A stretch of DNA of 64,000 nt from assembly GCA_041649135.1 (NCBI GenBank), contig JBAZNQ010000001.1, forward strand, positions 361,983 through 425,982, read 5' to 3'. Positions 3,640-64,000 of this stretch are shown here, piece by piece. Under the pieces are notes generated by a model. That model was not told the DNA's origin. It made no database searches and worked only from the letters and a program-made list of their open reading frames with translations. Numbering within the stretch: the stretch's first letter is position 1; each line of letters opens with the position of its first letter. The stretch is from Patescibacteria group bacterium. GTDB taxonomy: Bacteria > Patescibacteriota > Kazan-3B-28. Position numbers and translations under genes: made by a program.

Positions 3640-3722
3640 CATCTCTGTCATTGCGATGGCTCAAGCCCGCGGCAATCTTGGGTAGAGATTGCTTCGTCGA
3701 TGACGCTCCTCGCAATGACAGG
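3640..3722. repeat. MITE-like hairpin unit (gtcattgcga...cctcgcaatgac)
   Basis: Inverted repeat with GTCAT/ATGAC ends. Same family as 61615-61700 and 43790-43860. Confidence 0.5.
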
Positions 3723-3725
3723 TAG

Positions 3726-3838
3726 CTAACTAACCATCTCTCATCTCTCATCTCTCATCTCTCATCTCTCATCTCTCATCTCTCATCTCTCATCTCTCAT
3801 CTCTCATCTCTCATCTCTCATCTCTCATCTCTCATCTC
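3726..3838. repeat. Heptanucleotide tandem array (CTCTCAT)x~16
   Basis: Perfect 7-bp tandem repeat read directly from the sequence. It abuts the stop codon of the minus-strand ABC transporter gene. Confidence 0.95.
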
Positions 3839-6412: not shown

Positions 6413-6546
6413 CGCACACCTCCATCAAGACTACAAGATGCCTCCACCTTATCAGAACTCTTCCATCAGTCAACCCCATCCTCATTCATGTCGTTGCGGA
6501 AGTTCCGAGACACCGAGGGACGACCAAACAGTTTCCTAAACCGTGA

Positions 6547-6645
6547 TTCACCATTCACCATTCACCATTCACTATTCACTATTCACTATTCACTATTCAC
6601 TATTCACTATTCACTATTCACTATTCACTATTCACTATTCACTAT
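6547..6645. repeat. Heptanucleotide tandem array (CACCATT)3(CACTATT)~11
   Basis: Read directly from the sequence. It abuts and overlaps the stop codon of minus-strand tgt. Confidence 0.95.
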
Positions 6646-7792: not shown

Positions 7793-7832
7793 CTGTATTA
7801 CCTATTTGTACGATCGTACAAATAGGTAATAC
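7793..7832. promoter_or_regulatory. 38-bp perfect palindrome (gtattacctatttgtacgatcgtacaaataggtaatac), upstream of tgt
   Basis: Perfect dyad symmetry centred on CGATCG. A near-identical second copy lies at 50248-50288. Confidence 0.6.
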
Positions 7833-7844
7833 ACATCCCAAAAA

Positions 7845-14358: not shown

Positions 14359-14499
14359 ATTTTCAACCCCAGATCCTCGTCATTCTGGCAACTCTGCCGA
14401 AGAGCAGAGGCAACCAAAATCTTAAAAATTAATTGGCGAATTGACGAATTAAATTTCAACCCTCGTCCTTTCCTCTCCTCCATCCTTTGGTTAGATTGG

Positions 14500-15213: not shown

Positions 15214-15299
15214 TGGTGCCGGGACTAGGATTCGAACCTAGGAAGGCGTGAGCCAACTGATTTACAGTCAGTCCCGTTTGACCGCTTCGGTATCCCGGC
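15214..15299 (-). tRNA. tRNA-Tyr (anticodon GTA), class II
   Basis: Long variable arm; anticodon loop CTGTAAA; T-loop GGTTCGAATCC; CCA end. Confidence 0.7.
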
Positions 15300-15531
15300 A
15301 TGCTATATAATTTTTCAATTGCTTCTTTAAATATTGTCTACCGGAGCCACCTTTCAAAAATTTCTCTCGCCCAACTGCATCCATTTTATGTTGGTAACCC
15401 TCAAAATAAATTAATCTCCATCCCCAATGATTATTCAGCTGATGTTCCTGTAGTCTTCTCCTTAGATCAGAAGTGTATCCAATATACCAAGAGTAACTGT
15501 ACTGATTTTCCAACACATAGACAACAAACAT
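15268..15531 (-). CDS. GIY-YIG nuclease-domain small protein
   Basis: YVLENQ...YIGYTSDLRRRLQEH (GIY-YIG motif). Its 3' end overlaps the 5' end of tRNA-Tyr by ~30 nt. Confidence 0.6.
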   Translation of the reverse strand: MFVVYVLENQYSYSWYIGYTSDLRRRLQEHQLNNHWGWRLIYFEGYQHKMDAVGREKFLKGGSGRQYLKKQLKNYIACRDTEAVKRD

Positions 15532-19939: not shown

Positions 19940-20075
19940 CCCCATTTGTCATTCCGGATTTAGTCCGGAATCCATTTTCCCCGTCATCCCGCCATACTCA
20001 AGTGATGGCGGGATCCATTTTCCCCTTGTCATTGCGAGAAGTCCCGAGCCAGTCGAGGGACGACACGGCAATCTA
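19940..20075. repeat. Tandem MITE-like hairpin units (gtcattccgga...tccggaat; gtcatcccgcc...ggcgggat)
   Basis: GTCAT + variable paired stem + CC(ATTTTCCCC) modules. Confidence 0.6.
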
Positions 20076-20268
20076 TCCTTTATCACTCCAAGCGTAACTG
20101 AAGGATCTAGACGACAGTTGCATTTAATAACCACATTCTTGGCCAAATATTGAACGGCCGTTCAATATTCTGTCATATCCCAAATAAAAAAGCCGTCATC
20201 TCGCAGGACAACGGCTAACTTAGCGTGTCATATACGCCCCAATCTCGAGGTCACCATCTGCCAACGAA

Positions 20269-20811: not shown

Positions 20812-21224
20812 ACCTCCTTTGGTTTGTTAAGTTACCACTTTCGTTTTACGCCAAAACCCGCTCCCAGTCAATCAAAAACCCCGTCTGGGTAAATCTAGCC
20901 AATTTATCCAATTTATTCCCCGCCCGCCGACGGGCAGGCAATCTAACCAAAGAAATTGTTGAGATTGTCATGGACCCTTCGTAGCTTCAGCGAAGTAGGG
21001 GCGAAGATTGTTTAGATTGTCGCAGACCCTTTGTCTTGTCCACCATAGCTTCTTGACCGTCGTAGCCTTGGCATAGTCAATTGACCAGAATCGTATAATA
21101 AATAACCAGCCCGTCATCCTGAATTTATTTCAGGATCTAGACAAGAACAAAAACATTTCTGTTCCTGTCCCATTGGTTAGATTGGGGAAATTGGTGAGAT
21201 TACTTCGTCGCTAGTTCTGCTAAT

Positions 21225-35954: not shown

Positions 35955-36075
35955 AGAATCCCCGCCCTTATTTTCGTCATTCCCGCGCAGGCGGGAATCC
36001 AGAAAAGAACAAGAAAAAATATTTTTGTTTCTGTCTAGATTCCGGATCAAGTCCGGAATGACAGGAAAAAGAAGA
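35955..36075. repeat. MITE-like element (gtcattcccgcgcaggcgggaatcc ... attccggatcaagtccggaatgac)
   Basis: Two terminal hairpins flank an A/T-rich, roughly palindromic core. Same family as 40195-40288 and 62795-62925. Confidence 0.7.
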
Positions 36076-36551
36076 CCGCCCTTTCGGGCGACCTTCTCCA
36101 AAACCAAAACATCAAAATCTAATCCACTACCATCAAAATTTTCGCTAACCAAACCGATTCATCCTCTGTGTTATTACAAACAAACTTATATATCCCCAAG
36201 CGAGCCTTGCGAGATAAATTATTAAAAGCCAAGTAAGCTTTGGAAAATACTCCGTACATTTTGTGCTACGTTGTTAGTATTGCCAGTTTGTCTGGTCCGG
36301 TAAACGGCTGACCGCTTCCGAAGCCGACTGTTTGGATGAGTCTCCCTCCGAAACTCCATCCCAGTAAAGTCAATAACTTTTGTATTTTTCATTCTGGGTG
36401 CACATTTCTTAATATGACACCCCCCAATCCATTTGATTCTATTATACCGCAAAATCACCTCCCAGTCAAGATTTTTCCGCTCCCAGACCTGATAATTCCC
36501 ACTTTTCCTCCTATGGACACCCACAGAAACTAGATTCCCGCCTTCGCGGGA

Positions 36552-38801
36552 ATGACAGCTTGGGGTCTAGATGACAAAATAAAAGCGCTTACAAAGCGCC
36601 ACCGCAACTATTCACTTATCACTTTTAACTTTTCACTTCCCCTTATGCTCTCCCCTGCCAGCAAACTCGACTCCCTCCCCCACATCGGGCCCGCTCTCGC
36701 TTCCCAATTAGCTGTCTTGGGTATTTTGACTGTTGAGGACTTGATCTATTATTTCCCTCGGGCATGGGAAGATTTAAGCCAACTAGCTGAAGTCGCCCAT
36801 CTCATCCCAGACGGTCAGCGTCGGACTGTTAAAGCCACCCTAATTAATCTCAAAACTTTCCGCTCCCCCTACAAACGAATGACCCTCACCCAAGGAATCG
36901 CCCGTGATGCTAGCGGAGAACTGCCGGTAATTTGGTTCAACCAGCCATTTTTACGCAACACTCTCAAAACCGACACCGAATATTTTCTTACCGGCAAAGT
37001 TGAAAACCGTTCCGGCAAATTATCTTTGGTTGCTCCCGATTTTGAACGCGTCAGCGATGTCCCGATCCATAGTCTGCGAATTGTACCGGTCTACCCAGAA
37101 ACTGGTCGGCTAACCACTAAAGTCTTTCGCCGACTATGCGCCAATCTCGCTCCCATCATTCATCAAATCGAAGATTACTTACCAGATACTATTCTGGCGC
37201 AATATCATTTGTTACCACTTTCCGAAGCTCTGCTCCATCTTCATTTTCCCGCTTCATTAGAGTATCTTCAGCGGGCCAAAGACCGACTAGCTTTTGACGA
37301 GCTCCTGCTTACCCAACTCGCCGTCCAGGGCGTAAAACAATTTTTGAAATCATCTGACGCTCTGCCCATTCCCCAAGACATCGATTTCATCAAATCAATT
37401 TTAGCCAAACTCCCTTACCAATTAACCATTGGTCAGAAAAAAGCCCTCTGGGAAATTGTTCAGGATTTGAGCGACACCAAGCCGACCAATCGCCTACTCG
37501 AAGGCGATGTCGGTTCTGGCAAAACTATCGTGATCGCGATTGCGATGATGTTAGCCGCGAAATATCATTTCCAATCCGCTCTCATGGCTCCGACTGAAGT
37601 CTTGGCTTATCAACATTATCATTCCCTTGAACCACTACTGACCCAATTTGGGATTACCTGCCGTCTGTTCACCCAAAGCTTCAAACTAGGACCAGAATCA
37701 GCCGATGTTACCATCGGAACTCACACTTTAATTCAAGACGCAACCAAATTTGATAATCTCAATCTCGTCATCATTGATGAGCAACATCGCTTTGGCGTCA
37801 AACAACGAGAAAAACTAAAACACAAATCCGCCGACGATCAAGATAGTCAGGTGGGCAAGGGACCTGCCCGCCACACTGCGTCTAATGAAAATGCGGCTGG
37901 GCCTGCCCGCCCCACTGCGTCGTTAGGAAATGAGGCTGGGTCTACCCGCCACATTGCATCTAAAGACGCTGTGGGCTGGGTTCCGCATTTCCTCTCTCTG
38001 ACCGCCACTCCCATCCCCCGTTCTCTCGCCCTAACCTTGTTTGGTGATTTAGATTTATCAGTCATTACCATGCGTCCAGTTGGTCGCCTACCTATCAAAA
38101 CCTCCGTCATTACCAACCAGCAACGCGGACAGGTTTATAAATTGATTCAGCAGGAGATTGATGCCAATCGGCAAGCTTTTGTTATCACTCCTCTGATTGC
38201 TGATTCAGATCGACTGGCTGTGAAATCCGCCGAAAAAGAATTTAAGAATATTCAATCGCTCTTCCCGCACGCTCGCGTCGGGCTCTTACACGGTCGGCTA
38301 ACTACTGACAAGAAACAAGCTGTGATGGATGATTTTAAAAATCAACGTTTAGATATTTTAGTTGCGACTACCGTCATCGAGGTTGGTGTCGATATTCCCA
38401 ATGCCACCGTCATGTTAATTGAAGGAGCGGAAAGATTTGGTCTGGCCCAACTTCATCAGCTCCGTGGTCGAGTTGGTCGTGGACAAGCGCAATCATATTG
38501 TTTCGTTACCCCAACCGACACCAATGATGAAATTACAAAACGTCTCCAAATTTTCGCCAACAACGTCGATGGTTTTAAGTTAGCCGAGATGGATCTACAA
38601 ATGCGCGGTCCGGGGAGTCTTTTTGGCAAAGTTCAATCCGGCTTTGTTCGCTATCGTCTGGCCGACTGGACCGATGCCAAAGCGATCAAAATCGCCCAAG
38701 ATGCCGCCTTAGAAATTTTGAGCCAAAGTCCTGACCTCTCCAAATATCCAGAGCTAAAGAAAAAAGTTAATATTGAAAGTGTCATTGCTCATTCCGAGTA
38801 A
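36552..38801 (+). CDS. recG: ATP-dependent DNA helicase RecG
   Basis: GSGKT, DEQH, TATPIPR and the RecG wedge region. Contains an in-frame 3 x 33-nt tandem repeat at ~37855-37965. The start may be a downstream Met. Confidence 0.8.
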   Translation: MTAWGLDDKIKALTKRHRNYSLITFNFSLPLMLSPASKLDSLPHIGPALASQLAVLGILTVEDLIYYFPRAWEDLSQLAEVAHLIPDGQRRTVKATLINLKTFRSPYKRMTLTQGIARDASGELPVIWFNQPFLRNTLKTDTEYFLTGKVENRSGKLSLVAPDFERVSDVPIHSLRIVPVYPETGRLTTKVFRRLCANLAPIIHQIEDYLPDTILAQYHLLPLSEALLHLHFPASLEYLQRAKDRLAFDELLLTQLAVQGVKQFLKSSDALPIPQDIDFIKSILAKLPYQLTIGQKKALWEIVQDLSDTKPTNRLLEGDVGSGKTIVIAIAMMLAAKYHFQSALMAPTEVLAYQHYHSLEPLLTQFGITCRLFTQSFKLGPESADVTIGTHTLIQDATKFDNLNLVIIDEQHRFGVKQREKLKHKSADDQDSQVGKGPARHTASNENAAGPARPTASLGNEAGSTRHIASKDAVGWVPHFLSLTATPIPRSLALTLFGDLDLSVITMRPVGRLPIKTSVITNQQRGQVYKLIQQEIDANRQAFVITPLIADSDRLAVKSAEKEFKNIQSLFPHARVGLLHGRLTTDKKQAVMDDFKNQRLDILVATTVIEVGVDIPNATVMLIEGAERFGLAQLHQLRGRVGRGQAQSYCFVTPTDTNDEITKRLQIFANNVDGFKLAEMDLQMRGPGSLFGKVQSGFVRYRLADWTDAKAIKIAQDAALEILSQSPDLSKYPELKKKVNIESVIAHSE

Positions 38802-38822: not shown

Positions 38823-38945
38823 TCTCCCTTTTGTCATTCCGAGCCCTTCAGTTCTTCAGGACAGGCTCCGCGAGGAATCTAGTTCCGGTTTACCGGAACG
38901 CCTATCGGCTAGATCCTTCGATTCGCTTCGCTCACTCGGGATGAC
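38823..38945. repeat. Long imperfect hairpin (tgtcattccgag...ctcgggatgacaa), MITE-like
   Basis: Terminal 13-bp inverted repeats with GTCAT ends. Confidence 0.55.
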
Positions 38946-39001
38946 AATACTTTGGTTAGATTGGTCTAGATTGGTGAGATTGGTCAGATTAATATATAGC
39001 T

Positions 39002-39532: not shown

Positions 39533-40178
39533 GCCAGATTGGTTTGAACAATACAAATACTATCTGCTGGCAATCTTGCTGATCATCATGACCGGCGGTT
39601 TATATTTAATTCTCACTCCACCAAAAGCTAGTTTGGCTAGTGATGCCGATACCGTACTGGTTGCTTCTGACGAATCTGCAACATCAACTATTGCTGGTGA
39701 TCAGATCGTGATTGATATTTCCGGCGGTGTTATCAAGACCGGCGTTTATTGGTTGGCTACCGGCAGTATCATTGAAGACGCCATTAGTTCTGCTGGCGGC
39801 TTCAGCCGATCAGCCGATCTGGATGCGGTCGGGAAAAATATTAATCGGGCCCAAGAACTCACCAATCATGGCAAAGTTTACATTCCCAAAATCGGCGATA
39901 CCAACATTGTCTACACCAACCCTTCTGCTGGCTCCTCCACTAGTTCATCGCAGACCCCCCAAAGCCTTGGCGACGGGGAAACCACGAGTCTGATTAACAT
40001 CAACACCGCCGATAATGCCGAACTCGATTTGCTCCCCGGCATCGGCGAGATCCTCTCCCAGCGCATCATTGACTACCGACTCCAAAATGGTAACTTTACC
40101 AGTATTGACGACCTCAAAAAAATTGCCGGTATTAACGACAGTCGTTTCGAGCAACTCAAAGATCTAGTAACAATCTAA
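39495..40178 (+). CDS. comEA: ComEA-like competence protein (SLBB + helix-hairpin-helix)
   Basis: C-terminal INTADNAELDLLPGIGEILSQRIIDYR (HhH) motif. Confidence 0.65.
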   Translation: METPLSPFTFTPKPDWFEQYKYYLLAILLIIMTGGLYLILTPPKASLASDADTVLVASDESATSTIAGDQIVIDISGGVIKTGVYWLATGSIIEDAISSAGGFSRSADLDAVGKNINRAQELTNHGKVYIPKIGDTNIVYTNPSAGSSTSSSQTPQSLGDGETTSLININTADNAELDLLPGIGEILSQRIIDYRLQNGNFTSIDDLKKIAGINDSRFEQLKDLVTI

Positions 40179-40194
40179 CAAGACTCTATCTCGT

Positions 40195-40288
40195 CGTGTC
40201 ATTCCCGCGTAGGCGGGAATCCAGACAGAAAAAGAAAAATTGTTTTTTGTTTTTTCTAGATTCCCGCCTACGCGGGAATGACAACTTG
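40195..40288. repeat. MITE-like element (gtcattcccgcgtaggcgggaatcc ... attcccgcctacgcgggaatgac)
   Basis: Nested hairpins and an A/T-rich palindromic core. Confidence 0.7.
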
Positions 40289-40289
40289 T

Positions 40290-40373
40290 GGGCGTGTGGC
40301 GAAATGGTATACGCACTAGCTTTAGGAGCTAGCGGGGCAACCCATGAAGGTTCAAGTCCTTTCACGCCCACCA
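40290..40373 (+). tRNA. tRNA-Leu (anticodon TAG), class II
   Basis: Acceptor GGGCGTG/CACGCCC; anticodon loop TTTAGGA; long variable arm; CCA end. Followed by a terminator at 40383-40412. Confidence 0.7.
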
Positions 40374-41660: not shown

Positions 41661-41748
41661 AAATTACCCACATGAACTGTCATTCTGGTAAGCCCAGCCC
41701 CTAAGGAGTCCCGACGTATCCAGAATGACAACTGCTAAGGAAGAGTTC

Positions 41749-41795
41749 TATTGGCTATTGGCTATTGGCTATTGGCTATTGGCTAGTGGCTAAAC
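41749..41795. repeat. Heptanucleotide tandem array (TGGCTAT)x~6
   Basis: Read directly from the sequence. It abuts the htrA stop codon. Confidence 0.9.
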
Positions 41796-42935: not shown

Positions 42936-43061
42936 AAATATCCCCTACAAATTAACTTATTAAGTGTATCCCTCCCTAGATACTAGATACTAACATATCA
43001 TTCTACCAACCTGAAAAATAACTGAAACTCCCACGACCATCATGAGTGATAGAATATAGCC

Positions 43062-43481
43062 ATGATAAATCATCAGCGCTGGTCAGTCGAATCTGCTCAA
43101 GCTGCTGCCGTCAACGGTACTTTGCAAGAGTGGCTAATAGCCTACCTCCGCAATGAAGGTAACAACGAGAAGCTTGCTCGTGTCATTGAAGAGCAGACAA
43201 ATGTCATCACTATCCAGCCTCCTAGACTGATCTCATTACAGCGAATGAAAATCATGGTCGGACCACCAAATAGTGGTCGCAAATGGACTGATTCAAAATG
43301 GGAAGTTAATATCAAGAAATTTGTGCACCTTATTCAGACAGGCTGGAATCCGCCACCAATCATTTTAACCGACTACTGGGGCACACCCAACGCTATTACT
43401 GACGGTAACCACCGCTATGAAGCATTGAAACGACTAGGATATAAAAAGTATTGGGCTATTCAACTAAAGAACAAGCGGTAA
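43062..43481 (+). CDS. ParB-like nuclease-domain protein
   Basis: DGNHRYEA (ParB/Srx DGxHR motif). Confidence 0.55.
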   Translation: MINHQRWSVESAQAAAVNGTLQEWLIAYLRNEGNNEKLARVIEEQTNVITIQPPRLISLQRMKIMVGPPNSGRKWTDSKWEVNIKKFVHLIQTGWNPPPIILTDYWGTPNAITDGNHRYEALKRLGYKKYWAIQLKNKR

Positions 43482-43559
43482 TATTCCTTACGCCAGTATC
43501 TTCTCCGCCATCGGAAGCTTGGAATGTGTCTTAACTCCCCTTCGAGCAAATCTCGTCAT

Positions 43560-43785
43560 CGGAAAATAAAATCAAGCCAAATCTGGCGCAAGCCTTGAGT
43601 CCTGATAACCCGTTTAATATTTACGTCAGGACGAATCGGCTTGGATATAAGCCAGATGACTGGATTTTATTATTGCGATAGAGATTCGTGAGCAGGGGTG
43701 AGTTTTCCTGTTCGCTTTTGCTCACTCAAAAGCGAACCGCCCAGCGCGCGGTGGCGTAGACCGCGCATAAAATTAATAAGATTCT
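43560..43785. ncRNA. Repeat family A copy 3
   Basis: See 18150-18420. This is the most divergent copy and the source of the covariation evidence. Confidence 0.5.
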
Positions 43786-43872
43786 GGATAATCCAGAATG
43801 ACGGAAAAACCAAGAAATAAGATTGCTTCGTCGCAAACTCCTCGCAATGACAAAGAGAAAGAAAAAACAAAG

Positions 43873-44661
43873 CTACTGCAAGACTACCAACCAATCCACC
43901 AAAAACACCGCCACCAAAGTCAGCACCACCAACCCGATATACTCCACCGCTACCCGCACCGTTAACGTGCCCTTAAGATAGTGAACGATGAAATCGACAA
44001 ATAAGTAAAACAACATCGCCACCAAAAACGTTTTCAAAAACACTCCCCGATGCCAGAAACTGGTTATCCAAGTTACTTGCTGTAACACCAATAACATAAT
44101 AATGGTGTACAACCATTTCCTTCGACTTTCGATGCGTTCTCTCCAAAATCGCAGATTAACCGCCAAAATCACTTCCAAAGAAATCGCCACCAACAGGAAC
44201 ACCAATTGCCAACTATATAGATCGCTAGCCATCAGCATGCTGGCAGTCAGGAAGAAGAACGCCAACAAGTCAATAAAATCAAGTAGCGAGAAAAATCTGA
44301 TCGGCCAATTTCCTTCCTGCAAATAGCTCTCGTACAAGATCAACAAACCCAACACTACCGCCGTAATCACTATCGCCGAAACTTGAAACGCCGTACTGCT
44401 TAGCAGATTAAATACCACAAACCCCACGCCAGCCGCGACTATCCAAACCACTTCGGTTAACAGCCACAACCAGTTTCGCCATTCCCGATCAAAACTACTA
44501 ATCCACCACACCCCCAAAGTCAGGACCACCAAAGTCGCTACCACCCACGCTATTAAATACTGTGGCGAATAGAACAAACACTGCAACAGCCCGTACACAA
44601 GGAGTGTGGTGATAAGAACCTTGCGGTTATTCCACAACCATGTCCGGGCTGTTTCTAACAT
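43873..44661 (-). CDS. Hypothetical polytopic membrane protein
   Basis: Seven or more hydrophobic helices. Confidence 0.5.
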   Translation of the reverse strand: MLETARTWLWNNRKVLITTLLVYGLLQCLFYSPQYLIAWVVATLVVLTLGVWWISSFDREWRNWLWLLTEVVWIVAAGVGFVVFNLLSSTAFQVSAIVITAVVLGLLILYESYLQEGNWPIRFFSLLDFIDLLAFFFLTASMLMASDLYSWQLVFLLVAISLEVILAVNLRFWRERIESRRKWLYTIIMLLVLQQVTWITSFWHRGVFLKTFLVAMLFYLFVDFIVHYLKGTLTVRVAVEYIGLVVLTLVAVFLVDWLVVLQ

Positions 44662-50139: not shown

Positions 50140-50247
50140 TATGCCTAAGTTTAATACCTATAACATCGTTGCGAGCGTATCAAAAAATGCGCCCCCAGTC
50201 AAGCTTTTTGACGCCCCTAGATTATAGCCCGCCGCAAACAATAGCCT

Positions 50248-50288
50248 GTATTACGTATATGTACGATCGTACATATTCGTAATACAAA
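50248..50288. promoter_or_regulatory. Second copy of the long palindrome (ttacgtatatgtacgatcgtacatattcgtaa)
   Basis: Shares the TGTACGATCGTACA core and GTATTAC...GTAATAC arms with 7793-7832. Confidence 0.6.
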
Positions 50289-53046: not shown

Positions 53047-53123
53047 TGGTGGGCGTGCCTGGATTCGAACCAGGGACCTCTGTCTTATCAGGACAGCGCT
53101 CTAACCAACTGAGCTACACGCCC
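53047..53123 (-). tRNA. tRNA-Ile (anticodon GAT)
   Basis: Anticodon loop CTGATAA; T-loop GGTTCGAATCC; CCA end. Confidence 0.75.
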
Positions 53124-53208
53124 GTTCGTCCAAGCGACAATAGGACACGACTAGATTAGCAAAAAATCCGCTTCCAATCAATCCGATTTTTCGAGGTATA
53201 ATTCAGAT

Positions 53209-53430
53209 ATGAGATGGTGGCTATTCTTTATTTTTGTCGGCATTGGTCTACCGTGGACGATCTATTATAAAAAACTTGCCGAATTAGTTGGCTACAAAAT
53301 TGCTTGGGCAGAAAAATACCTCGGCGGCGGTGGCACCTATACTGCTTACTTTATCTTTGGTATAGTCTTTATCATCCTAGGTTTTCTCATTGGTTTTGGG
53401 ATAATCGACCTAGGTTGGTTCGGAATGTAA
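53209..53430 (+). CDS. Small two-TM membrane protein
   Basis: ORF with hydrophobic helices. Confidence 0.35.
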   Translation: MRWWLFFIFVGIGLPWTIYYKKLAELVGYKIAWAEKYLGGGGTYTAYFIFGIVFIILGFLIGFGIIDLGWFGM

Positions 53431-53437
53431 TTGACAA

Positions 53438-53513
53438 GGGCCCGTAGTTCATCTGGTAGAACGCCACATTTGCAATGTGGAGGTAAGCGGTTCGAGTCCG
53501 CTCGGGTCCACCA
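53438..53513 (+). tRNA. tRNA-Ala (anticodon TGC)
   Basis: G3:U70 identity pair; anticodon loop TTTGCAA; T-loop GGTTCGAGTCC; CCA end. Confidence 0.75.
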
Positions 53514-53573
53514 AAAACAAATAAAAAAATAAGCCTTTTGTTAACGCAGTGGCTTTTAACTGCGGAGACCTCG

Positions 53574-53843
53574 TCAACTCGTAGCCTCATTCAAGACTTG
53601 GTGCGAACACCGCTCTTGTCTTATTCGTTCATGTTCAGAACGCCAATAGTGGCTGTAAGGCAACAGAGCCATGGCAACAAACAACGCACCGCTCAACCAA
53701 CCTGTTGTCGCATCGCCAGTATGAATGAATGTGATAAGCCCAACGACACAACCCCACCATGCTAGTGCCACCAAGTGTTGCACGATTGCCAACCACAAGG
53801 GGACGAGTACGAGAGACATGCGCATGCTACACCTCCGAATCAA
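53574..53843 (-). CDS. Small membrane protein
   Basis: ORF with hydrophobic helices. Confidence 0.35.
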   Translation of the reverse strand: MIRRCSMRMSLVLVPLWLAIVQHLVALAWWGCVVGLITFIHTGDATTGWLSGALFVAMALLPYSHYWRSEHERIRQERCSHQVLNEATS

Positions 53844-53944
53844 GGTACCCCTACCCTACTATAAAATCCGCTCCCAAGCAATACTTCTCCTCTTTGAGCC
53901 AATTGTGCCTTGTTTTAATCCGGCCCTTCAACGGAGGGGCGTTC

Positions 53945-54165
53945 TGAATTGAGCTAAATTGGCGCAGGCGTAGGCATGTCTGACGAGGTGGCAACCGAGA
54001 AGTTTGCCGATAGCGAAGAAAGCCAATTTAGCCAATGAATAGACCCGTAGTTGCGGGCCACGGCTTTGGTTACTTTCGCCAAGACGAAAGTAACGCCGGA
54101 TCGAACGCCGGCGCAGCGTTCGAAACTACAAACACCGCCTTTCAGCGGTGCTCATATTTTCTAAC
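53945..54165. repeat. Repeat family B copy 2 (directly downstream of the 16S 3' end)
   Basis: See 12655-12870. Confidence 0.8.
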
Positions 54166-54414
54166 CAGAAAGTACCCAGAGAGCTTTCACGTTTAAACCA
54201 CAAGTTGTCGTCTAAACGTGCGACCGTGTTCTATAGAAGATAGAACTGCAACCAAGCTTTCACTTGGTCAGTAATCTCCCTAGAAAGGAGGTATTCCATC
54301 CCCACCTTCCGGTAGGGATACCTTGTTACGACTTCACCCCGATCATGAGCTCCACCTTAGGCCTCTTGCGAAGATTTCGGATGTTTCTCACTTTCTTGGT
54401 GTGACGGGCGGTGA

Positions 54415-55199
54415 TTGCGATTAGGTAGTTTCTATCGCTCCCCACTGGACGTGCGTGTCTAGCGCATCCAGCGAGTCTCTATGTCGTATTAATCCGATTC
54501 TAGCTATCCCTGTAGCGGTTAGATGTTCTTTCCGCTCTATCATTTCTGCAACTTCACAAAACTTTTCGAATTGTAATTTTTTCTTGGCTTGAAGCGGGTA
54601 ACTTCGGAAGAAAGGAATAATCTTATTCCTGATATCCGAGAAGTTGCTCACTTTGTACTTCACGTGTGGTTGCCATTTATCGAACTTTTCGTATTCCAAG
54701 CGATAAATGTTGCCACAACCAAGTGTTGCTTTAATTTTCTCCAAGATAGCTTCATCATCTTCCCGAAGTTCAATCTCGAAAATCAATCGAACTTCCGGTA
54801 AACGACTGCCGTTTTTATTGACTGTGATGCAAAAACATCCTTCTCCGTCAACAAATCCGACAATATAGTTTGGATCTAACATAGAGTTCACCCCTTCATC
54901 TGCTCTTATTATAGAACAAACTACTACGGGCTCAGCTGACTTCCTTTTGACCATAACAACTACACTCGTCAAAAGGATCTCCCTGGGTCACACATTGGGC
55001 TATTTCTGACATTCCTACGCGAGCTCTTCTATGGTTTCTTCTCTTGCGTACACGGCAAGATCGAAACGCTCTTAAATGCGTAAGACTACCATTTGCATAT
55101 TGGCTCCTTCAGGCTTTTCCTTACGGAAGAAGCCCTAGCCTTAGCTATAAAGTCGGATTCTCACCGACTAGTCCAATGCGCTGCCAGGCGCATTTATTT
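54415..55199 (-). other. Intervening sequence (intron-like, probably group I) in 16S at ...CUUGUACA|CACCGCCCGUC
   Basis: The flanking exon sequence reconstitutes the universal CTTGTACACACCGCCCGTCACACC when 54415-55199 is removed. The insert carries a LAGLIDADG ORF. Confidence 0.75.
54421..54972 (-). CDS. LAGLIDADG homing endonuclease (single-motif)
   Basis: NYIVGFVDGEGCF motif. The real start is probably the Met at ~54882. Confidence 0.75.
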   Translation of the reverse strand: MTSVVVMVKRKSAEPVVVCSIIRADEGVNSMLDPNYIVGFVDGEGCFCITVNKNGSRLPEVRLIFEIELREDDEAILEKIKATLGCGNIYRLEYEKFDKWQPHVKYKVSNFSDIRNKIIPFFRSYPLQAKKKLQFEKFCEVAEMIERKEHLTATGIARIGLIRHRDSLDALDTHVQWGAIETT

Positions 55200-55624
55200 T
55201 GTACAAGACCCGAGAACGTATTCACCGCAACATGGCTGATTTGCGGTTACTAGCGATTCCGGCTTCATGGGGTCGAGTTGCAGACCCCAATCCGAACTGG
55301 GGGTAGTTTTGCTGGGTTTGGCTCCACCTTACGGCTTAGCGTCCCATTGTGACCTACCCATTGTAGCACGTGTGTCGCCCAAGATATAAAGGCCACGCTG
55401 ATTTGACGTCATCCCCACCTTCCTCCGTGTTAACCACGGCAGTCTCGCCAGACACTTGTAACTGGCAATAGGGGTTGCGCTCGTTATCCGACTTAACGGT
55501 ACATTTCACAACACGAGCTGACGACAACCGTGCAGCACCTGTCTCTGCTGTCTTGCGAGGGGCTCTATTTCTAGTGCCTTTCAGCAGGATGTCAAATCTT
55601 GGTGAGGTGCCCGGCTTACCATCC

Positions 55625-55679
<55 letters not shown>

Positions 55680-55780
55680 TAGTCTTGCGACCGTACTCCC
55701 CAGGCGGGATACTTAACGCGTTAGCTTCGTCACTGGGGGGGTCGAAGCCACCAATGACTAGTATCCATCGTTTAGGGCGT

Positions 55781-55814
<34 letters not shown>

Positions 55815-56202
55815 ACGCTTTCGTCCATGAGTGTCAGGGCCGGCCCAGTTGTCTGCCTTCGCCTTTGGTGTTCCTTATCGTATCAACGGATATTACCCCT
55901 ACTCGATAAGTTCCGACAACCTCTACCGGCCTCAAGACCAACAGTTTCCAACACCTTCCCTCGGTTGAGCCGAGATATTTAACGTTGGACTTGTTGATCC
56001 ACCTGCGGACCCTTTACGCCCAGTGAATCCGAATAACGCTTGGCGCCTACGTATTACCGCTGCTGCTGGCACGTAGTTAGCAGCGCCTTATTCGCTTAGT
56101 ACCGTCATAATCTTCCTAAGCAAAAGAAGTTTACAAACCGAAGTCCGTCTTCCTTCACGCGGCATTGCTCCATCAGGCTTTCGCCCATTGTGGAAAATCC
56201 CT

Positions 56203-56247
<45 letters not shown>

Positions 56248-56772
56248 CTGGGGGGTCACCCTCTCAAGCCCCCTACCGATCAGTGCCTTGGTAGGCCTTT
56301 ACCCCACCAACAAGCTAATCGGACGCAGGTCTCTCTTCGAGCGATAAATCTTTCCTCTTACGAGAATATCCAGAATTATCCTGCCTTTCGGCAGGTTATG
56401 CTGAACTCGAAGGTAAGTCCCCACGTGTTACTCAGCCGTTCGCCATGGTACCCTTGCGGGCCATTCAACTTGCATGTGTTAGGCATGCCGCCAGCGTTAA
56501 TCCTGAGCTAGGATCAAACTCTCAAAAAAGTATATTTTTATTCCACTTCTGGAATTTAAAGTTTTGAATTCACGAAGCTCTCTAAGTACTCTCTAGTTGG
56601 AAAAGTACGACTAGTTGAGAGTCGCGCTATCCACCAGAGGCCAAATAAAACCAAGATTCCGGTTACCGGAATCCGCAAGGTTTACAGTTCGACCTGACTG
56701 GAAAAGATTAATACAACTCTAGTGGGTATTTTAATCCCCACCACCACCCCTGTCAACACTCTAATTTCAAAG

Positions 56773-61614: not shown

Positions 61615-61700
61615 AGCCTTCTCTAGTCATTGCGAGGAATGTAATGACGAAGCAATCTTTATAACAGATTGCCGCGCGACGCTCGCAATGACAAAAAAGA
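61615..61700. repeat. MITE-like hairpin (gtcattgcgagg...ctcgcaatgac)
   Basis: Inverted repeats with GTCAT/ATGAC ends. Confidence 0.6.
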
Positions 61701-61703
61701 CGA

Positions 61704-62801
61704 TTAATCTCTAAATTCTTTATCCAAATCCTGCAACAGCCGCCGTTGTTTAATCGTCAATCTCTCCGGCACATCAATATCAATCTGTAAATATAAACTG
61801 CCGTTCGCCCCACCACTCTGACGCACACCATGATCTTTCACCCGCAAAATCTCACCCGCTCTAGTACTAGGCGGAACTTTGATATTGATCTCACCAAATA
61901 ACGTTTTGAATTTCACGCTTCCACCTAAAACCGCCGTCGTAAACGGAATTGTCATTGTTTTATACAAATCCATCCCCGACCGACGATATTCGCGATTTGG
62001 TCGAATTCGTACGGACATAAATAAGTCACCGGTTTTACCACCACGCAATCCGGCATTACCTTCCTCGCGTACTCGAATAGTCTGACCCTCATCAATCCCA
62101 GCGGGAATTTTAATTTTCACTTCTTTTTGCTGACGCATTCGACCAGACCCGCGACAATTCCGACATTCTTTTTCTGGTACTTCACCTATACCACGACAAG
62201 TTGGACAAGTCTGGCTCTGACGAACCGCTCCGAAAACTGTTTGGCGTGCGACCTCAATTCGCCCCGCACCGCCACACTTACTACAACTGGCCTGTTTTTT
62301 AGTTGTCGAACCAGTCCCATCACAAGTCTTACACGCAAGTTCTTTATTGATCAAAATGGTTTTTTCTCCGCCAAAGATAGCCTCTTCAAAACTTAATTCC
62401 ATCACCACTTCAATATCCTCACCCCGCAAGATATCCTCCTTGTTGCGTTTGCGACCACCCCGCGGACTCCCACCAAAAAATGTTTCAAAAATATCTTCAA
62501 ATCCGGTTCCGCCAAAATTACTAAAATCAAAACCACCAAAACCAGCGCCACTTTGCGGGCCAGCCCCATTCCCGAAAGTTTGACCATATTGGTCATATTG
62601 CCGGCGTTTATCTTCATCCGCCAACACCTGATATGCTTCGTTTATTTCTTTGAATTTCTTTTCCGCTTCTGCCCCTTTCGCTTTGTCCGGATGATATCTT
62701 AAAGCCAGCTTCCGATAAGCCCTCTTTATCTCCTCCGTCGAAGCACCTTTCGGCACTCCCAAAATATTGTAATAGTCTTTACCCATACTCTTTGAAGTCA
62801 T
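61704..62801 (-). CDS. dnaJ: Chaperone DnaJ
   Basis: J-domain with HPD; G/F-rich region; 4 x CxxCxGxG zinc finger. Confidence 0.9.
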
Positions 62802-62925
62802 CCCCGCCTCCGAGCGGGGATCCAGACAAAAACAGAAAAACTTTTTATTTTACTTTCCTTGGCCGCGTCCTGCAGACTTGTCCGCAGGCAGGCTGGATTC
62901 TCCGATCAAGCCGGAGAATGACTCA
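62795..62925. repeat. MITE-like element (gtcatccccgcctccgagcggggatcc ... attctccgatcaagccggagaatgac)
   Basis: Same architecture as 35955-36075 and 40195-40288. Confidence 0.65.
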
Positions 62926-62994
62926 CCAGAGAAACACCACCAGCTACCCCAATTGGTGAGATTGGTGAGATTGTTCAGATTGGATAGATTATTT

Positions 62995-63720: not shown

Positions 63721-64000
63721 ACGATGCTACAACACTAGCATATTATTTCTTAAGCATTTAGACCAGCCCCACAAAATATCAACGTGCTTCCTCGATGCCT
63801 CGGAAAGACAAATTTTACTTTTGTGTCCCCGAGGAACCGAGGGGCTACCATAACTGTTCACTATTCACCATTCACTTTTAACTATTCTCTCCCTCGTCCT
63901 TCTTCTCATCCATCGGCTCTTGCGTAAAATCTGCTTCCTTCGCTCCGCCTTCTCCTGATTGGTTAGATTGGTCAGATTGTTGAGATTGGTTAGATTGCCC

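What the first reader, a model, noticed from the sequence alone, without database searches (positions are those of the whole stretch)
35955..36075. MITE-like nested-hairpin element family with conserved GTCAT...ATGAC ends and covarying stems
About ten instances share 5'-GTCAT(T/C)CC-stem...stem-GG(A)ATGAC-3'. The stem sequences differ but always pair (attccgga/tccggaat, atcccgcc/ggcgggat, attcccgc/gcgggaat, atccccgc/gcggggat, attctgg/ccagaat, cattgcgag/ctcgcaatg). Complete elements are two such hairpins flanking a roughly palindromic A/T core (ccagacagaaaaagaaaaa...tttttgttttttctag); these lie at 35955-36075, 40195-40288 and 62795-62925. Solo or partial units occur at 3640-3722, 19940-20075, 21108-21140, 36515-36560, 38823-38945, 41683-41740, 43790-43860 and 61615-61700. 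One element sits immediately 5' of tRNA-Leu. Several produce spurious ORFs in the six-frame track.
Basis: seen in the sequence. Interest (0 to 1): 0.5.

Follow-up and report, generated by a model that had tools for sequence, protein, structure and literature searches.

The report
CGTC-tagged REP hairpin repeats in CPR
The repeats are real, but they are a known kind of small hairpin repeat (the "CGTC-tagged REP" or NTS/dRS3 family of Neisseria, Wolbachia and others), here found expanded in the spacers between genes of a tiny-genome Patescibacteria (CPR) bacterium.

Summary
The window, from a Patescibacteria/CPR genome, carries about 21 oriented hairpin units. Each has a 5' (C/T/A)GTC tag, a stem that starts with AT, a loop, and a 3' C(C/T)A tail. 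A GTCAT tag followed by a perfect stem of 7 bp or more occurs 14 times, against 0.3 in shuffles. All units lie between genes. They occur singly, in tandem, or as inverted pairs around an A/T-rich palindromic spacer.

The family is already known. It matches the CGTC-tagged REPs of Di Nocera 2013, which include Neisseria dRS3. It also matches the NTS / "Ssn-related motif" of Chenal 2025: window 35975-36002 fits the 28-nt NTS consensus perfectly. Inverted pairs have REPIN/NIME architecture. They are not classical MITEs: I saw no target-site duplication and no parent IS.

The units come and go between relatives. Two syntenic genomes with about 70% identical RecG have none. Two near-identical metagenome contigs (L088, L089) differ at three spacer sites.

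The likely partner is an Ssn-type GIY-YIG single-strand DNA nuclease. I found such genes flanked by these units in other CPR contigs, but none in this window. The window's one small GIY-YIG gene belongs to a different, tRNA-linked subgroup.

Verdict: new member of a known kind, modest interest.

The parts
35973..36065 (.). Inverted pair of unlike units. Left unit 35973-36004 (+) has stem ATTCCCGC, and 35975-36002 is a perfect match to the 28-nt NTS consensus. Right unit 36033-36065 (-) has stem ATTCCGGA. An A/T-rich palindromic spacer lies between them. The pair sits between convergent genes (TyrRS and a 100-aa ORF).
   Evidence: exact NTS; two terminal hairpins, z = -5.1; 43.1 and 38.2 bits; TyrRS
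36528..36559 (-). Solo unit, TGTCATTCCCGCGAAGGCGGGAATCTAG. It lies inside a ~130-bp insertion that separates RecG from the divergent 100-aa ORF; in relatives the two gene starts overlap. The ATG of its ATGAC tag creates a spurious 31-codon N-terminal extension of the RecG ORF.
   Evidence: 41.5 bits; the ENA gene call gives RecG 718 aa, not 749
38830..38948 (.). Degenerate inverted pair (units 38830-38884 + and 38907-38948 -) with long loops and an inner hairpin (TTCCGGTTTACCGGAA). It lies in a ~200-bp spacer between RecG and the next gene. In L002 and L003 the RecG stop overlaps the next start (ATGA).
   Evidence: (20.3 and 15.3 bits)
40195..40285 (.). Near-perfect inverted pair of like units (stem ATTCCCGC on both), with spacer CCAGACAGAAAAAGAAAAATTGTTTTTTGTTTTTTCTAG. 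It ends 7 nt before tRNA-Leu. The site is empty (3-4 nt spacer) in L002, L003 and L089, and is filled by a different pair in L088.
   Evidence: (-39.8 kcal/mol, z = -13.5); sub-threshold match to Rfam WsnRNA46 (54.3 bits, cut-off 65.3)
62794..62925 (.). Inverted pair of unlike units (ATCCCCGC at 62794-62827 +; ATTCTCCG at 62891-62925 -), with an extended spacer that holds an extra hairpin. It lies upstream of dnaJ. The ATGAC tag extends the dnaJ ORF by 5 codons.
   Evidence: 32.7 and 31.5 bits; DnaJ
19945..20078 (+). Tandem array of three units in the same orientation, with different hairpins: ATTCCGGA; ATCCCGCC(AT) with a long loop; and a class-B ATTGCGAG unit. They are joined by the repeated linker CCATTTTCCCC.
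   Evidence: (42.1 and 29.3 bits)
21110..21142 (+). Solo unit CGTCATCCTGAATTTATTTCAGGATCTAG, followed by half of the A/T-rich spacer (ACAAGAACAAAAACATTTCTGTTCCTGTC). The same stem type forms the array next to an Ssn-type gene in CPR locus L023.
   Evidence: (36.9 bits)
41678..41730 (.). Single long-loop hairpin carrying a tag on both strands (TGTCATTCTGG...CCAGAATGACA). It lies between convergent genes, next to a (CTATTGG)x6 microsatellite. It is absent from L002.
   Evidence: (z = -3.3)
43775..43854 (-). Two units in tandem on the minus strand: class A (43775-43805, stem ATTCTGGA) and class B (43816-43854, GTCATTGCGAG...GACGAAGCAATC). They lie at the edge of a ~0.9-kb lineage-specific insertion that carries a 139-aa ORF.
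   Evidence: (29.1 bits)
3644..3722 (.). Class-B inverted pair (GTCATTGCGA...GGCAATC / GATTGC...CTCGCAATGAC). It folds as one long imperfect hairpin and abuts a (CATCTCT)x15 microsatellite.
   Evidence: (z = -3.9); Logan contig L087 ends here
61623..61695 (.). Class-B inverted pair that folds as one long hairpin. It lies between unidirectional genes.
   Evidence: (z = -4.6)
14376..14426 (+). Weak, degenerate unit: CGTCATTCTGG...CCAAAATC with an inner hairpin.
   Evidence: (12.2 bits, E = 0.9); low confidence
15268..15531 (-). The only GIY-YIG gene in the window: a small single-domain ORF of about 80-87 aa, between tRNA-Thr and tRNA-Tyr. It is a weak candidate partner nuclease. It is not flanked by units, and it belongs to a tRNA-linked CPR subgroup, not clearly to the Ssn group.
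   Evidence: (PF01541, E = 3e-9)

Best explanation
The elements belong to the CGTC-tagged REP family, which includes Neisseria dRS3 / NTS and the 'Ssn-related motifs'.

Shown:
- Each unit is a short DNA hairpin with an unpaired 5' (C/T/A)GTC tag, a stem of about 8 bp that begins with AT, and a 3' C(C/T)A tail.
- Units occur singly, in tandem, or as inverted pairs around a structured A/T-rich spacer (REPIN/NIME architecture).
- In this Patescibacteria lineage they have multiplied in the spacers between genes, and they are gained, lost or replaced quickly.
[quoted passage not shown] The stem needs only to pair.

Inferred:
- The units act as single-stranded DNA hairpins recognised by a small GIY-YIG nuclease of the Ssn type. 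This follows from the experiments on Neisseria and Wolbachia in PMC11893778.
- The partner enzyme is encoded elsewhere in this genome. Spread or turnover goes through cutting and rejoining or recombination of single-stranded hairpin DNA, without target-site duplication.
For: Identity of the units:
- Window 35975-36002 matches CGTCATTCCCGCGMAVGCGGGAATCYRG exactly. The published SRM pattern gives 5 hits against 0.16 expected (consensus from PMC11893778).
- Tag, 8-bp stem starting with AT, loops of about 4-5 nt in most class-A units (longer in some), CCA/CTA tail and pair organisation fit the CGTC-REP definition (PMC3733652; alignments).
- The same units and pair architecture occur in N. gonorrhoeae (31 and 24 places), Legionella adelaidensis, Azospirillum, Photobacterium and others.
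- Rfam WsnRNA46, a Wolbachia element of the same build, is the best sub-threshold match (54.3 bits, E = 1e-9).

Enrichment and structure.

Turnover:
- L002 and L003 (RecG about 70% identical, collinear over about 20 kb) have no units. They have empty or overlapping spacers where the window has elements.
- L088 and L089 (91-99.7% identical to each other) differ at three spacer sites.
- Logan contigs break at the units.

Partner enzyme in CPR:
- Ssn-type genes that are 44-57% identical to the Azospirillum and Photobacterium Ssn-type proteins, or to the CPR L023 copy, occur in CPR loci.
- In L023 the gene is followed directly by an array of at least 7 units.
- In L133, L134 and L139 the gene is flanked on both sides by pairs of units.
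Against: - No Ssn-type gene was found in the roughly 78 kb of this genome that I could read.
- The window's own GIY-YIG is only 34-36% identical to Ssn-type proteins. It lacks their GFTxxY insert and KKWxRxWK C-terminus, and it is not flanked by units.
- Even in Neisseria, Ssn is shown to cut, not to transpose. The way the units are copied is unproven. Bertels and Rainey attribute the same Neisseria sequence to a RAYT transposase.
- At least seven stem variants coexist here. That would need either a tolerant enzyme or several enzymes.
- The covariation count is biased by how the units were chosen.
Confidence: 0.72

Rival explanations
1. The inverted pairs are REPINs copied by a REP-associated tyrosine transposase (RAYT, IS200/IS605-like) encoded elsewhere in the genome. 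This is what Bertels and Rainey propose for the identical Neisseria sequence ATTCCCGCGCAGGCGGGAATC.
For: The inverted-pair architecture with a short spacer and a long hairpin fits a REPIN. The Neisseria REPIN master sequence equals the class-A unit, and is tied to a Group-2 RAYT. Two Y1-transposase-like ORFs exist among 2.26 Mb of CPR loci, in L070 and L095.
Against: No HUH/Y1 motif ORF is in the window. The covariance model found no units anywhere in loci L070 and L095, which carry the two CPR Y1 candidates. Di Nocera 2013 found that CGTC-tagged REPs, unlike GTAG-tagged ones, are never next to tyrosine transposase genes. Ssn-type genes, not RAYTs, are the genes flanked by units in CPR loci.
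Confidence: 0.13
2. Classical MITEs: deletion derivatives of an insertion sequence, moved by its DDE transposase through the GTCAT...ATGAC terminal inverted repeats, with target-site duplications.
For: The inverted pairs look superficially like terminal inverted repeats. Their size (85-130 bp) and intergenic position fit.
Against: No target-site duplication appears at any filled/empty comparison. Units occur singly, in tandem, and as pairs with unlike ends that cannot pair with each other. No IS is in the window. The same 28-nt unit is shared across phyla, independent of any IS.
Confidence: 0.03
3. The hairpins are mainly functional RNA or transcription elements (terminators, mRNA stabilisers, or small RNAs such as Wolbachia WsnRNA46, Francisella FtrB or Coxiella CbSR3), kept by selection at each site and not as mobile DNA.
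For: All copies are intergenic, many after gene ends or between convergent genes. There are sub-threshold Rfam matches to sRNA families built on similar elements. Di Nocera 2013 argues that many REPs are transcribed.
Against: Units occur in both orientations, and also between divergent gene starts (36528-36559). They are absent from orthologous spacers of close relatives, which manage with spacers of 0-4 nt. There are no G-T pairs in the stems (biased sample). The tag and tail are conserved on one strand, as expected for a DNA-binding enzyme. A secondary role in RNA is not excluded, and is compatible with the main explanation.
Confidence: 0.1

Closest known systems
CGTC-tagged REPs (families CGTC-1 to CGTC-4; Di Nocera, De Gregorio and Rocco 2013, PMC3733652); CGTC-1 of Neisseria = dRS3
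   Same: Unpaired CGTC/TGTC tag, 8-9 bp stem beginning with AT, loops of 4-5 nt in the simplest units, CCA-like tail. Units are mostly organised as pairs, with like or unlike partners and structured spacers. They are intergenic, and several stem variants coexist in one genome.
   Different: The host phylum differs: the 2013 survey lists Proteobacteria, Chlorobi, Bacteroidetes, Spirochaetes and Thermotogae, not CPR. Many units here have long loops with nested hairpins. A second class (ATTGCGAG...GAAGCAAT) has only a weak stem of its own and folds mainly as a pair.
Neisseria Transformation Sequence (NTS) / Ssn-related motif with the SsnA GIY-YIG single-strand DNA nuclease (Chenal et al. 2025, PMC11893778)
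   Same: One perfect and three near-perfect matches to the 28-nt NTS, and five SRM-pattern hits. The conserved positions here are those reported there as mattering for SsnA cutting and binding. Ssn-type genes flanked by such units exist in other CPR contigs.
   Different: No Ssn-type gene was seen in the accessible part of this genome. A role in natural transformation is untested here. Stem diversity within one genome is larger than the NTS consensus allows.
REPIN-RAYT systems and Neisseria intergenic mosaic elements (NIMEs)
   Same: Two inverted hairpin units around a short spacer that fold into one long hairpin (40197-40283). Mosaic arrays mix different units (19945-20078). The Neisseria REPIN master sequence is identical to the class-A unit.
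   Different: No RAYT was found. The tag is CGTC, not the GTAG cut by RAYTs.
Rfam RF02625 WsnRNA46 (Wolbachia small RNA 46)
   Same: Same build: TGTCAT...GGATCCAGAAAA - A/T-rich centre - CTGGAT...GGATGACA. It is the best Rfam match to 40178-40303.
   Different: The score of 54.3 bits is below the curated cut-off of 65.3, so this is not a member. No evidence of transcription here.

Membership tests
CGTC-tagged REP (Di Nocera 2013) | Unpaired 5' tag CGTC (variants TGTC, CCTC) | tested here: met
   All aligned units start with C/T/A + GTC. GTC is invariant in 19 of 19 class-A and 10 of 10 class-B or degenerate units.
CGTC-tagged REP (Di Nocera 2013) | Stem of 8-9 bp with complementary A-T and T-A in the first two positions; loop of 4-5 nt | tested here: met
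   Class A has an 8-bp stem, and AT/AT is invariant. The loop is about 4-5 nt in most class-A units and longer, with nested hairpins, in the rest. Class-B units have only a 5-bp stem of their own (ATTGC/GCAAT), so the feature is met for class A only.
CGTC-tagged REP (Di Nocera 2013) | Short unpaired 3' tail, mostly CCA | tested here: met
   Tails are CCA (6), CTA (4) and CTT (1) among the 11 window class-A units. The C after the stem is at least 90% conserved.
CGTC-tagged REP (Di Nocera 2013) | Many dispersed intergenic copies, mostly as pairs | tested here: met
   About 21 units in 64 kb, all intergenic: 6 inverted pairs, 2 tandem arrays and 4 single units, one of them low-confidence. About 5 more lie in the next 6.3 kb. 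The genome-wide count is not available.
NTS / Ssn-related motif (Chenal 2025) | Match to CGTCATTCCCGCGMAVGCGGGAATCYRG, or to the degenerate SRM pattern, above chance | tested here: met
   1 exact NTS match. 5 SRM hits against 0.16 in shuffles (maximum 2).
NTS / Ssn-related motif (Chenal 2025) | The genome encodes a cd10448 (Ssn) single-domain GIY-YIG protein, usually flanked by the motif | tested here: inconclusive
   About 78 kb of the genome was read, and it holds no Ssn-type gene. The window's GIY-YIG (PF01541) is 34-36% identical to Ssn-type proteins, lacks their signature segments and has no flanking units. No CDD tool was available. Ssn-type genes flanked by units are present in CPR loci L023 and L133/L134/L139.
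NTS / Ssn-related motif (Chenal 2025) | Strand-specific binding and cutting of the single-stranded motif by the Ssn protein | not testable with these tools
   This is a biochemical assay. Only the match between the conserved positions and the published mutational map can be cited.
REPIN-RAYT | Two REP units in inverted orientation, within about 130 bp, able to form one hairpin | tested here: met
   40197-40283, 3646-3720 and 61625-61693 each fold as a single long hairpin.
REPIN-RAYT | A cognate RAYT gene flanked by the same REP units | tested here: not met
   No HUH/Y1 ORF is in the window. This is limited to the window. Published surveys found no RAYT next to CGTC-tagged REPs.
MITE | Target-site duplication flanking each copy, and an autonomous IS with the same terminal inverted repeats | tested here: not met
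   No direct duplication appears at filled versus empty sites in window/L002/L003 or L088/L089. No IS is in the window.
Rfam RF02625 WsnRNA46 | Score at or above the curated gathering cut-off (65.3 bits) | tested here: not met
   54.3 bits at 40178-40303. No Rfam family reaches its cut-off on any unit.

The most novel reading that the evidence does not exclude
In CPR/Patescibacteria, which depend on DNA taken up through competence machinery, an Ssn-type GIY-YIG nuclease and its hairpin units may form a self-propagating 'GIY-YIG REPtron'. Units-ssn-units cassettes like those in L133/L139 would seed hundreds of units. The same system would cut incoming single-stranded DNA at those units, as SsnA does in Neisseria. 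Near-identical 28-nt units in CPR, Neisseria, Photobacterium and Legionella would then reflect transfer of the cassette between phyla. This would make GIY-YIG the long-missing mobilising enzyme of the CGTC-tagged REPs.
Probability: 0.15. Interest if true: 0.7.

Novelty: new member of a known kind. Interest (0 to 1): 0.33.

Why it matters
CPR bacteria have very small, streamlined genomes, and are not usually thought of as hosts of expanding repeat families. Here, spacers that are 0-4 nt long in relatives are 100-200 bp long and filled with these units. Close relatives differ in which spacers are occupied. So the units are a fast-moving source of genome variation in this lineage, and a practical cause of assembly breaks and false ORF starts (RecG, DnaJ).

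Finding Ssn-type genes bracketed by the units in CPR contigs extends the Ssn/NTS pairing to a phylum not named in the main text of either survey paper read here. It offers small, simple test cases for a still open question: what copies CGTC-tagged REPs?

For annotation, the result is mundane. The units should be masked as a known repeat type.

Tried and rejected
- Cyanobacterial small dispersed repeats. This was my first guess, from the heptamer microsatellites. I dropped it once RecG relatives placed the window in Patescibacteria.
- Rfam at curated thresholds: no family matches on any unit. At relaxed thresholds there are only sub-threshold sRNA and miRNA-hairpin matches.
- RAYT/Y1 transposase motif scan: none in the window. 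There are two in 2.26 Mb of CPR loci, and the model found no units in those two loci.
- Target-site duplications: none. The CTAGAT...CTAGAT around 36530-36557 is the unit's tail plus a tag-tail remnant without a hairpin, not a duplication.
- The window's GIY-YIG as the Ssn partner. It has no flanking units, and its nearest relatives sit beside tRNA-Ser or tRNA-Tyr genes instead. I left this as inconclusive.
- The 100-aa ORF 36222-36524, which is bracketed by units. It is conserved in relatives that lack units and has no domain hit, so it is not the partner.
- The 139-aa ORF 43062-43481, next to units. It is unique to this genome among 167 loci, with no Pfam hit and a DGNHR motif only. Not pursued.
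- Supplementary tables of the Ssn paper, to check for CPR genomes: not held.
- Exact-protein look-ups for two window ORFs found nothing.
- The 'Microcystis phage MaAM05' match: the record carries proS and lepA and looks like bacterial DNA, so it is not evidence for phage carriage.

Full report
**What is there**

The window has about 46% G+C and a GC skew that is negative throughout, mostly between -0.1 and -0.3. Its RecG gene (36552/36645-38801) finds relatives only among Patescibacteria/CPR genomes. The best are 70-71% identical and the rest about 40%.

The basic unit is one oriented hairpin, not a GTCAT...ATGAC element. It has:
- a 5' tag H-GTC;
- a stem of about 8 bp that always begins with AT;
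- a loop;
- the complementary arm ending in AT;
- a tail C(C/T)A(G) (alignments).

I count about 21 units.
- Thirteen or fourteen are 'class A', with perfect 8-bp stems of at least seven kinds: ATTCCCGC, ATTCCGGA, ATCCCGCC, ATCCCCGC, ATCCTGAA, ATTCTGGA and ATTCTCCG.
- Six are 'class B' (GTCATTGCGAG...GACGAAGCAATC). Their own stem is only ATTGC/GCAAT.
- One is a double-tagged long-loop hairpin at 41678-41730.

Their arrangement is as follows.
- Six inverted pairs: 3644-3722, 35973-36065, 38830-38948, 40195-40285, 61623-61695 and 62794-62925.
- Two tandem arrays: 19945-20078 and 43775-43854.
- Four single units: 14376-14426 (low confidence), 21110-21142, 36528-36559 and 41678-41730.

All units lie between genes.

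**More than chance**

- GTCATYCC occurs 15 times against 4.6 expected.
- ATTCC-N8-16-GGAAT occurs 6 times against 1.0 expected.
- GTCAT followed in register by a perfect stem of 7 bp or more occurs 14 times against 0.3 in 200 dinucleotide shuffles. Control pentamers give 0-2, and 12 of the 14 are followed by C.

On 19 aligned units (11 from the window and 8 from other CPR loci), five of the eight stem positions change on both sides. 98.7% of cells pair, and there is no G-T pair. This count is inflated, because I chose units by their perfect stems. The unbiased statement is the enrichment.

As single-stranded DNA, 40197-40283 folds into one 87-nt hairpin (-39.8 kcal/mol, z = -13.5). The pair of unlike units at 35975-36063 folds into two terminal hairpins. 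The class-B pairs fold as long imperfect hairpins.

**What it is**

A text search for the sequence itself led to three papers.

- Chenal et al. 2025 (PMC11893778) define the Neisseria Transformation Sequence, CGTCATTCCCGCGMAVGCGGGAATCYRG. It extends the old dRS3 repeat (ATTCCC-N8-GGGAAT). They also define a degenerate 'Ssn-related motif' (SRM). They show that SsnA, a 94-aa single-domain GIY-YIG protein (cd10448), binds and cuts it only as single-stranded DNA and only on one strand. ssn genes are typically bracketed by the motif.
- Di Nocera et al. 2013 (PMC3733652) had classed the same sequences as 'CGTC-tagged REPs'. Their features are a CGTC/TGTC tag, 8-9 bp stems starting with AT, loops of 4-5 nt, a CCA tail, pairs of like and unlike units, and structured spacers. 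They noted that the family has no dedicated transposase.
- Bertels and Rainey (bioRxiv 10.1101/2021.07.10.451892) treat ATTCCCGCGCAGGCGGGAATC as the Neisseria REPIN master sequence, linked to a Group-2 RAYT.

The window fits these descriptions. 35975-36002 matches the NTS consensus exactly. The published SRM pattern gives 5 hits against 0.16 in shuffles.

BLAST of the 40190-40290 pair against annotated collections finds:
- N. gonorrhoeae chromosomes, filed as plasmids, with 31 and 24 places;
- a Legionella adelaidensis replicon with the same 87-bp pair architecture;
- Azospirillum, Photobacterium, Cupriavidus and Sphingobium.

The best Rfam match, below its cut-off, is WsnRNA46. This is a Wolbachia 'small RNA' built on the same kind of pair (54.3 bits against a cut-off of 65.3).

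The positions that never vary here are the GTC tag, the AT...AT at the base of the stem and the C after the stem. [quoted passage not shown] Stem mutations matter only through pairing. That explains the 'covarying stems' without invoking an RNA.

**Insertion polymorphism**

L002 and L003 are collinear with window positions 31.8-51.7 kb at 66-80% nucleotide identity. They contain no unit by pattern or by covariance model.

Where the window has elements, these relatives have almost no spacer:
- The RecG stop overlaps the next start (ATGA).
- Four nucleotides separate the ComEA-like gene from tRNA-Leu.
- The RecG start overlaps the start region of the divergent gene.

The metagenome scan added L088 and L089. 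Their RecG is 69% identical to the window's, and they are 91-99.7% identical to each other. Each carries about ten units. They differ from each other at three spacer sites:
- The site before tRNA-Leu is filled in L088 (and in the window, by a different pair) and empty (3 nt) in L089.
- The spacer after RecG holds a compact pair of unlike units only in L089.
- A third spacer holds a pair only in L089, with flanks 99.7% identical.

None of these comparisons shows a target-site duplication. Several look like replacement of the whole spacer, not a clean insertion.

Independent assemblies confirm both the context and the repetitiveness. ENA contig k141_2225525 (420 kb) carries the same genes and units. 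Short-read Logan contigs stop exactly at units. About five further units lie in the 6.3 kb to the right of the window, and none in the 7.4 kb to the left.

Across 160 other Patescibacteria RecG neighbourhoods (2.2 Mb), the model finds units in only 15 loci. So the family is widespread in CPR but patchy, and it is expanded in this lineage.

**The partner enzyme**

The window has no RAYT-like ORF. It has one small GIY-YIG gene, at 15268-15531 on the minus strand (PF01541, E = 3e-9), between tRNA-Thr and tRNA-Tyr.

A tblastn search of plasmids with this protein picked up Ssn-type proteins. They show the defining arrangement:
- Azospirillum lipoferum WP_014249537 lies between two NTS pairs inside the suf operon.
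- A Photobacterium homologue is followed by seven NTS pairs.

The window protein is only 34-36% identical to these. It lacks their GFTxxY segment and their KKWxRxWK C-terminus, and it has no units nearby. Its nearest relatives in CPR loci sit beside tRNA-Ser genes. I therefore do not file it as an Ssn. Its membership is inconclusive.

True Ssn-type genes do occur in CPR:
- L023 58-360 is 44-51% identical to the proteobacterial ones. It is followed at once by an array of at least seven GTCATCCTGAA... units, the stem type of window unit 21112.
- L133, L134 and L139 carry a gene 57% identical to the L023 copy. It is bracketed on both sides by the same ~95-bp group of units.

This makes an Ssn-type nuclease, encoded outside the part of the genome I could read, the most likely partner. 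That step is inference.

**How it most likely works**

Shown: the family identity, the hairpin structure, the intergenic expansion, the rapid gain, loss or replacement, and the Ssn-unit linkage in CPR contigs.

Inferred from published work: the units act as single-stranded DNA hairpins, exposed during replication, repair or DNA uptake, and are recognised by the tag, the stem and the tail.

Unknown: how new copies arise. Candidates are GIY-YIG cutting plus repair or recombination, a RAYT, or recombination between units.

Rivals:
- A RAYT-driven REPIN model cannot be excluded without the full genome (0.13).
- A classical MITE model fails on target-site duplications, single units and pairs of unlike units (0.03).
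- A purely RNA or terminator role does not explain the one-strand tag, the use of both orientations, or the absence from relatives. A secondary RNA role is still possible (0.1).

**Novelty and verdict**

What I could not find in the papers read is their presence in Patescibacteria. The 2013 survey lists five other phyla. 'Patescibacteria' does not occur in the main text of the 2025 paper. A literature search gave nothing specific.

I therefore rate the finding as a new member of a known kind, of modest interest. The open question it touches is what copies these repeats, and whether the Ssn system acts on incoming DNA in CPR. The decisive step is a scan of the complete ERZ27247363 bin for the copy number and for Ssn-type or RAYT genes.

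Noticed in passing
window 3735-3839, 6546-6645, 41748-41792, 38952-38990, 62952-62983, 63957-63997: Heptamer and nonamer microsatellites lie in intergenic spacers, often directly beside the hairpin units: (CATCTCT)x15, (ATTCACT)x14, (CTATTGG)x6, and GATTGGT-like repeats. The GATTGG-type stretch upstream of the gene after RecG is shared with L088.
   Followed up: partly
window 7794-7833 and 50247-50286: Two 40-bp (near-)perfect palindromes with nearly the same sequence (TGTATTACCTATTTGTACGA|TCGTACAAATAGGTAATACA), in two distant intergenic spacers. They are unrelated to the GTCAT units and could be operator sites.
   Followed up: no
window 53047-56529: Unusual rRNA locus. The 16S gene (55148-56529, minus strand) spans only 1382 nt against the full 1533-position model. 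A ~2-kb spacer before tRNA-Ile holds a group II intron D1-D4 match (54891-54974) and a 183-aa ORF. tRNA-Ala lies on the opposite strand. The ENA 420-kb contig ends inside the 16S gene.
   Followed up: no
window 15268-15531; L017 8867-9130; L043 6990-7259; L051 8900-9750; L076 8100-8750: Small GIY-YIG genes in CPR sit directly 5' of class II tRNA genes (Tyr, Ser) and read into them. In L051 and L076 they come with partial tRNA-Ser-like copies, not called by ARAGORN, that contain a GTCATCCGAC...GTCGGATGAC hairpin where the T-loop would be. In L051 the block is duplicated in tandem. The L076 copy has an in-frame TGA where the motif's glycine would be.
   Followed up: partly
window 36499-36665: The ~130-bp insertion at the RecG start is flanked by two diverged copies of a ~40-bp segment (CCACTTTTCCTCCTATGG...AAACTAGA and CACTTCCCCTTATGCTC...AAACTCGA). 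In relatives this segment occurs once, and there it holds the overlapping starts of RecG and the divergent gene.
   Followed up: partly
window 37820-37980: An in-frame tandem repeat of 39 bp (x2.6; GPARHTASNENAA-like) is inserted within RecG. It is absent from all relatives (gap).
   Followed up: partly
window 42973-43873: A ~0.9-kb lineage-specific insertion, compared with L002 and L088, carries a 139-aa ORF (43062-43481). The ORF has a DGNHR motif, no Pfam hit and no homologue in 167 loci. It is next to two units.
   Followed up: partly
L168 (MW495066.1 204338-210447) and NZ_CP119140.1 / NZ_CP119142.1: The record 'Microcystis phage MaAM05' carries proS, lepA and 12 NTS-type places, and looks like bacterial DNA. 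Two PLSDB 'plasmids' of 2.17 Mb are N. gonorrhoeae chromosomes.
   Followed up: partly
L023 366-755; L060 7196-7245; L169 2098-2146: 5' half-units (tag plus left arm, e.g. GTCATCCTGAATTCATT or GTCATTCCCAA) sit a few nucleotides upstream of complete units. They may be footprints of how units are copied or broken.
   Followed up: no
L088 13365-13433; L169 2990-3052: A second small module (GCGT(C/T)AGCCCTCCATAGCTC...AGCGAAGGA(T/C)GGGAT) is nested in the loop of units, both in this genome and in the L088 lineage. This suggests a repeat within a repeat.
   Followed up: no
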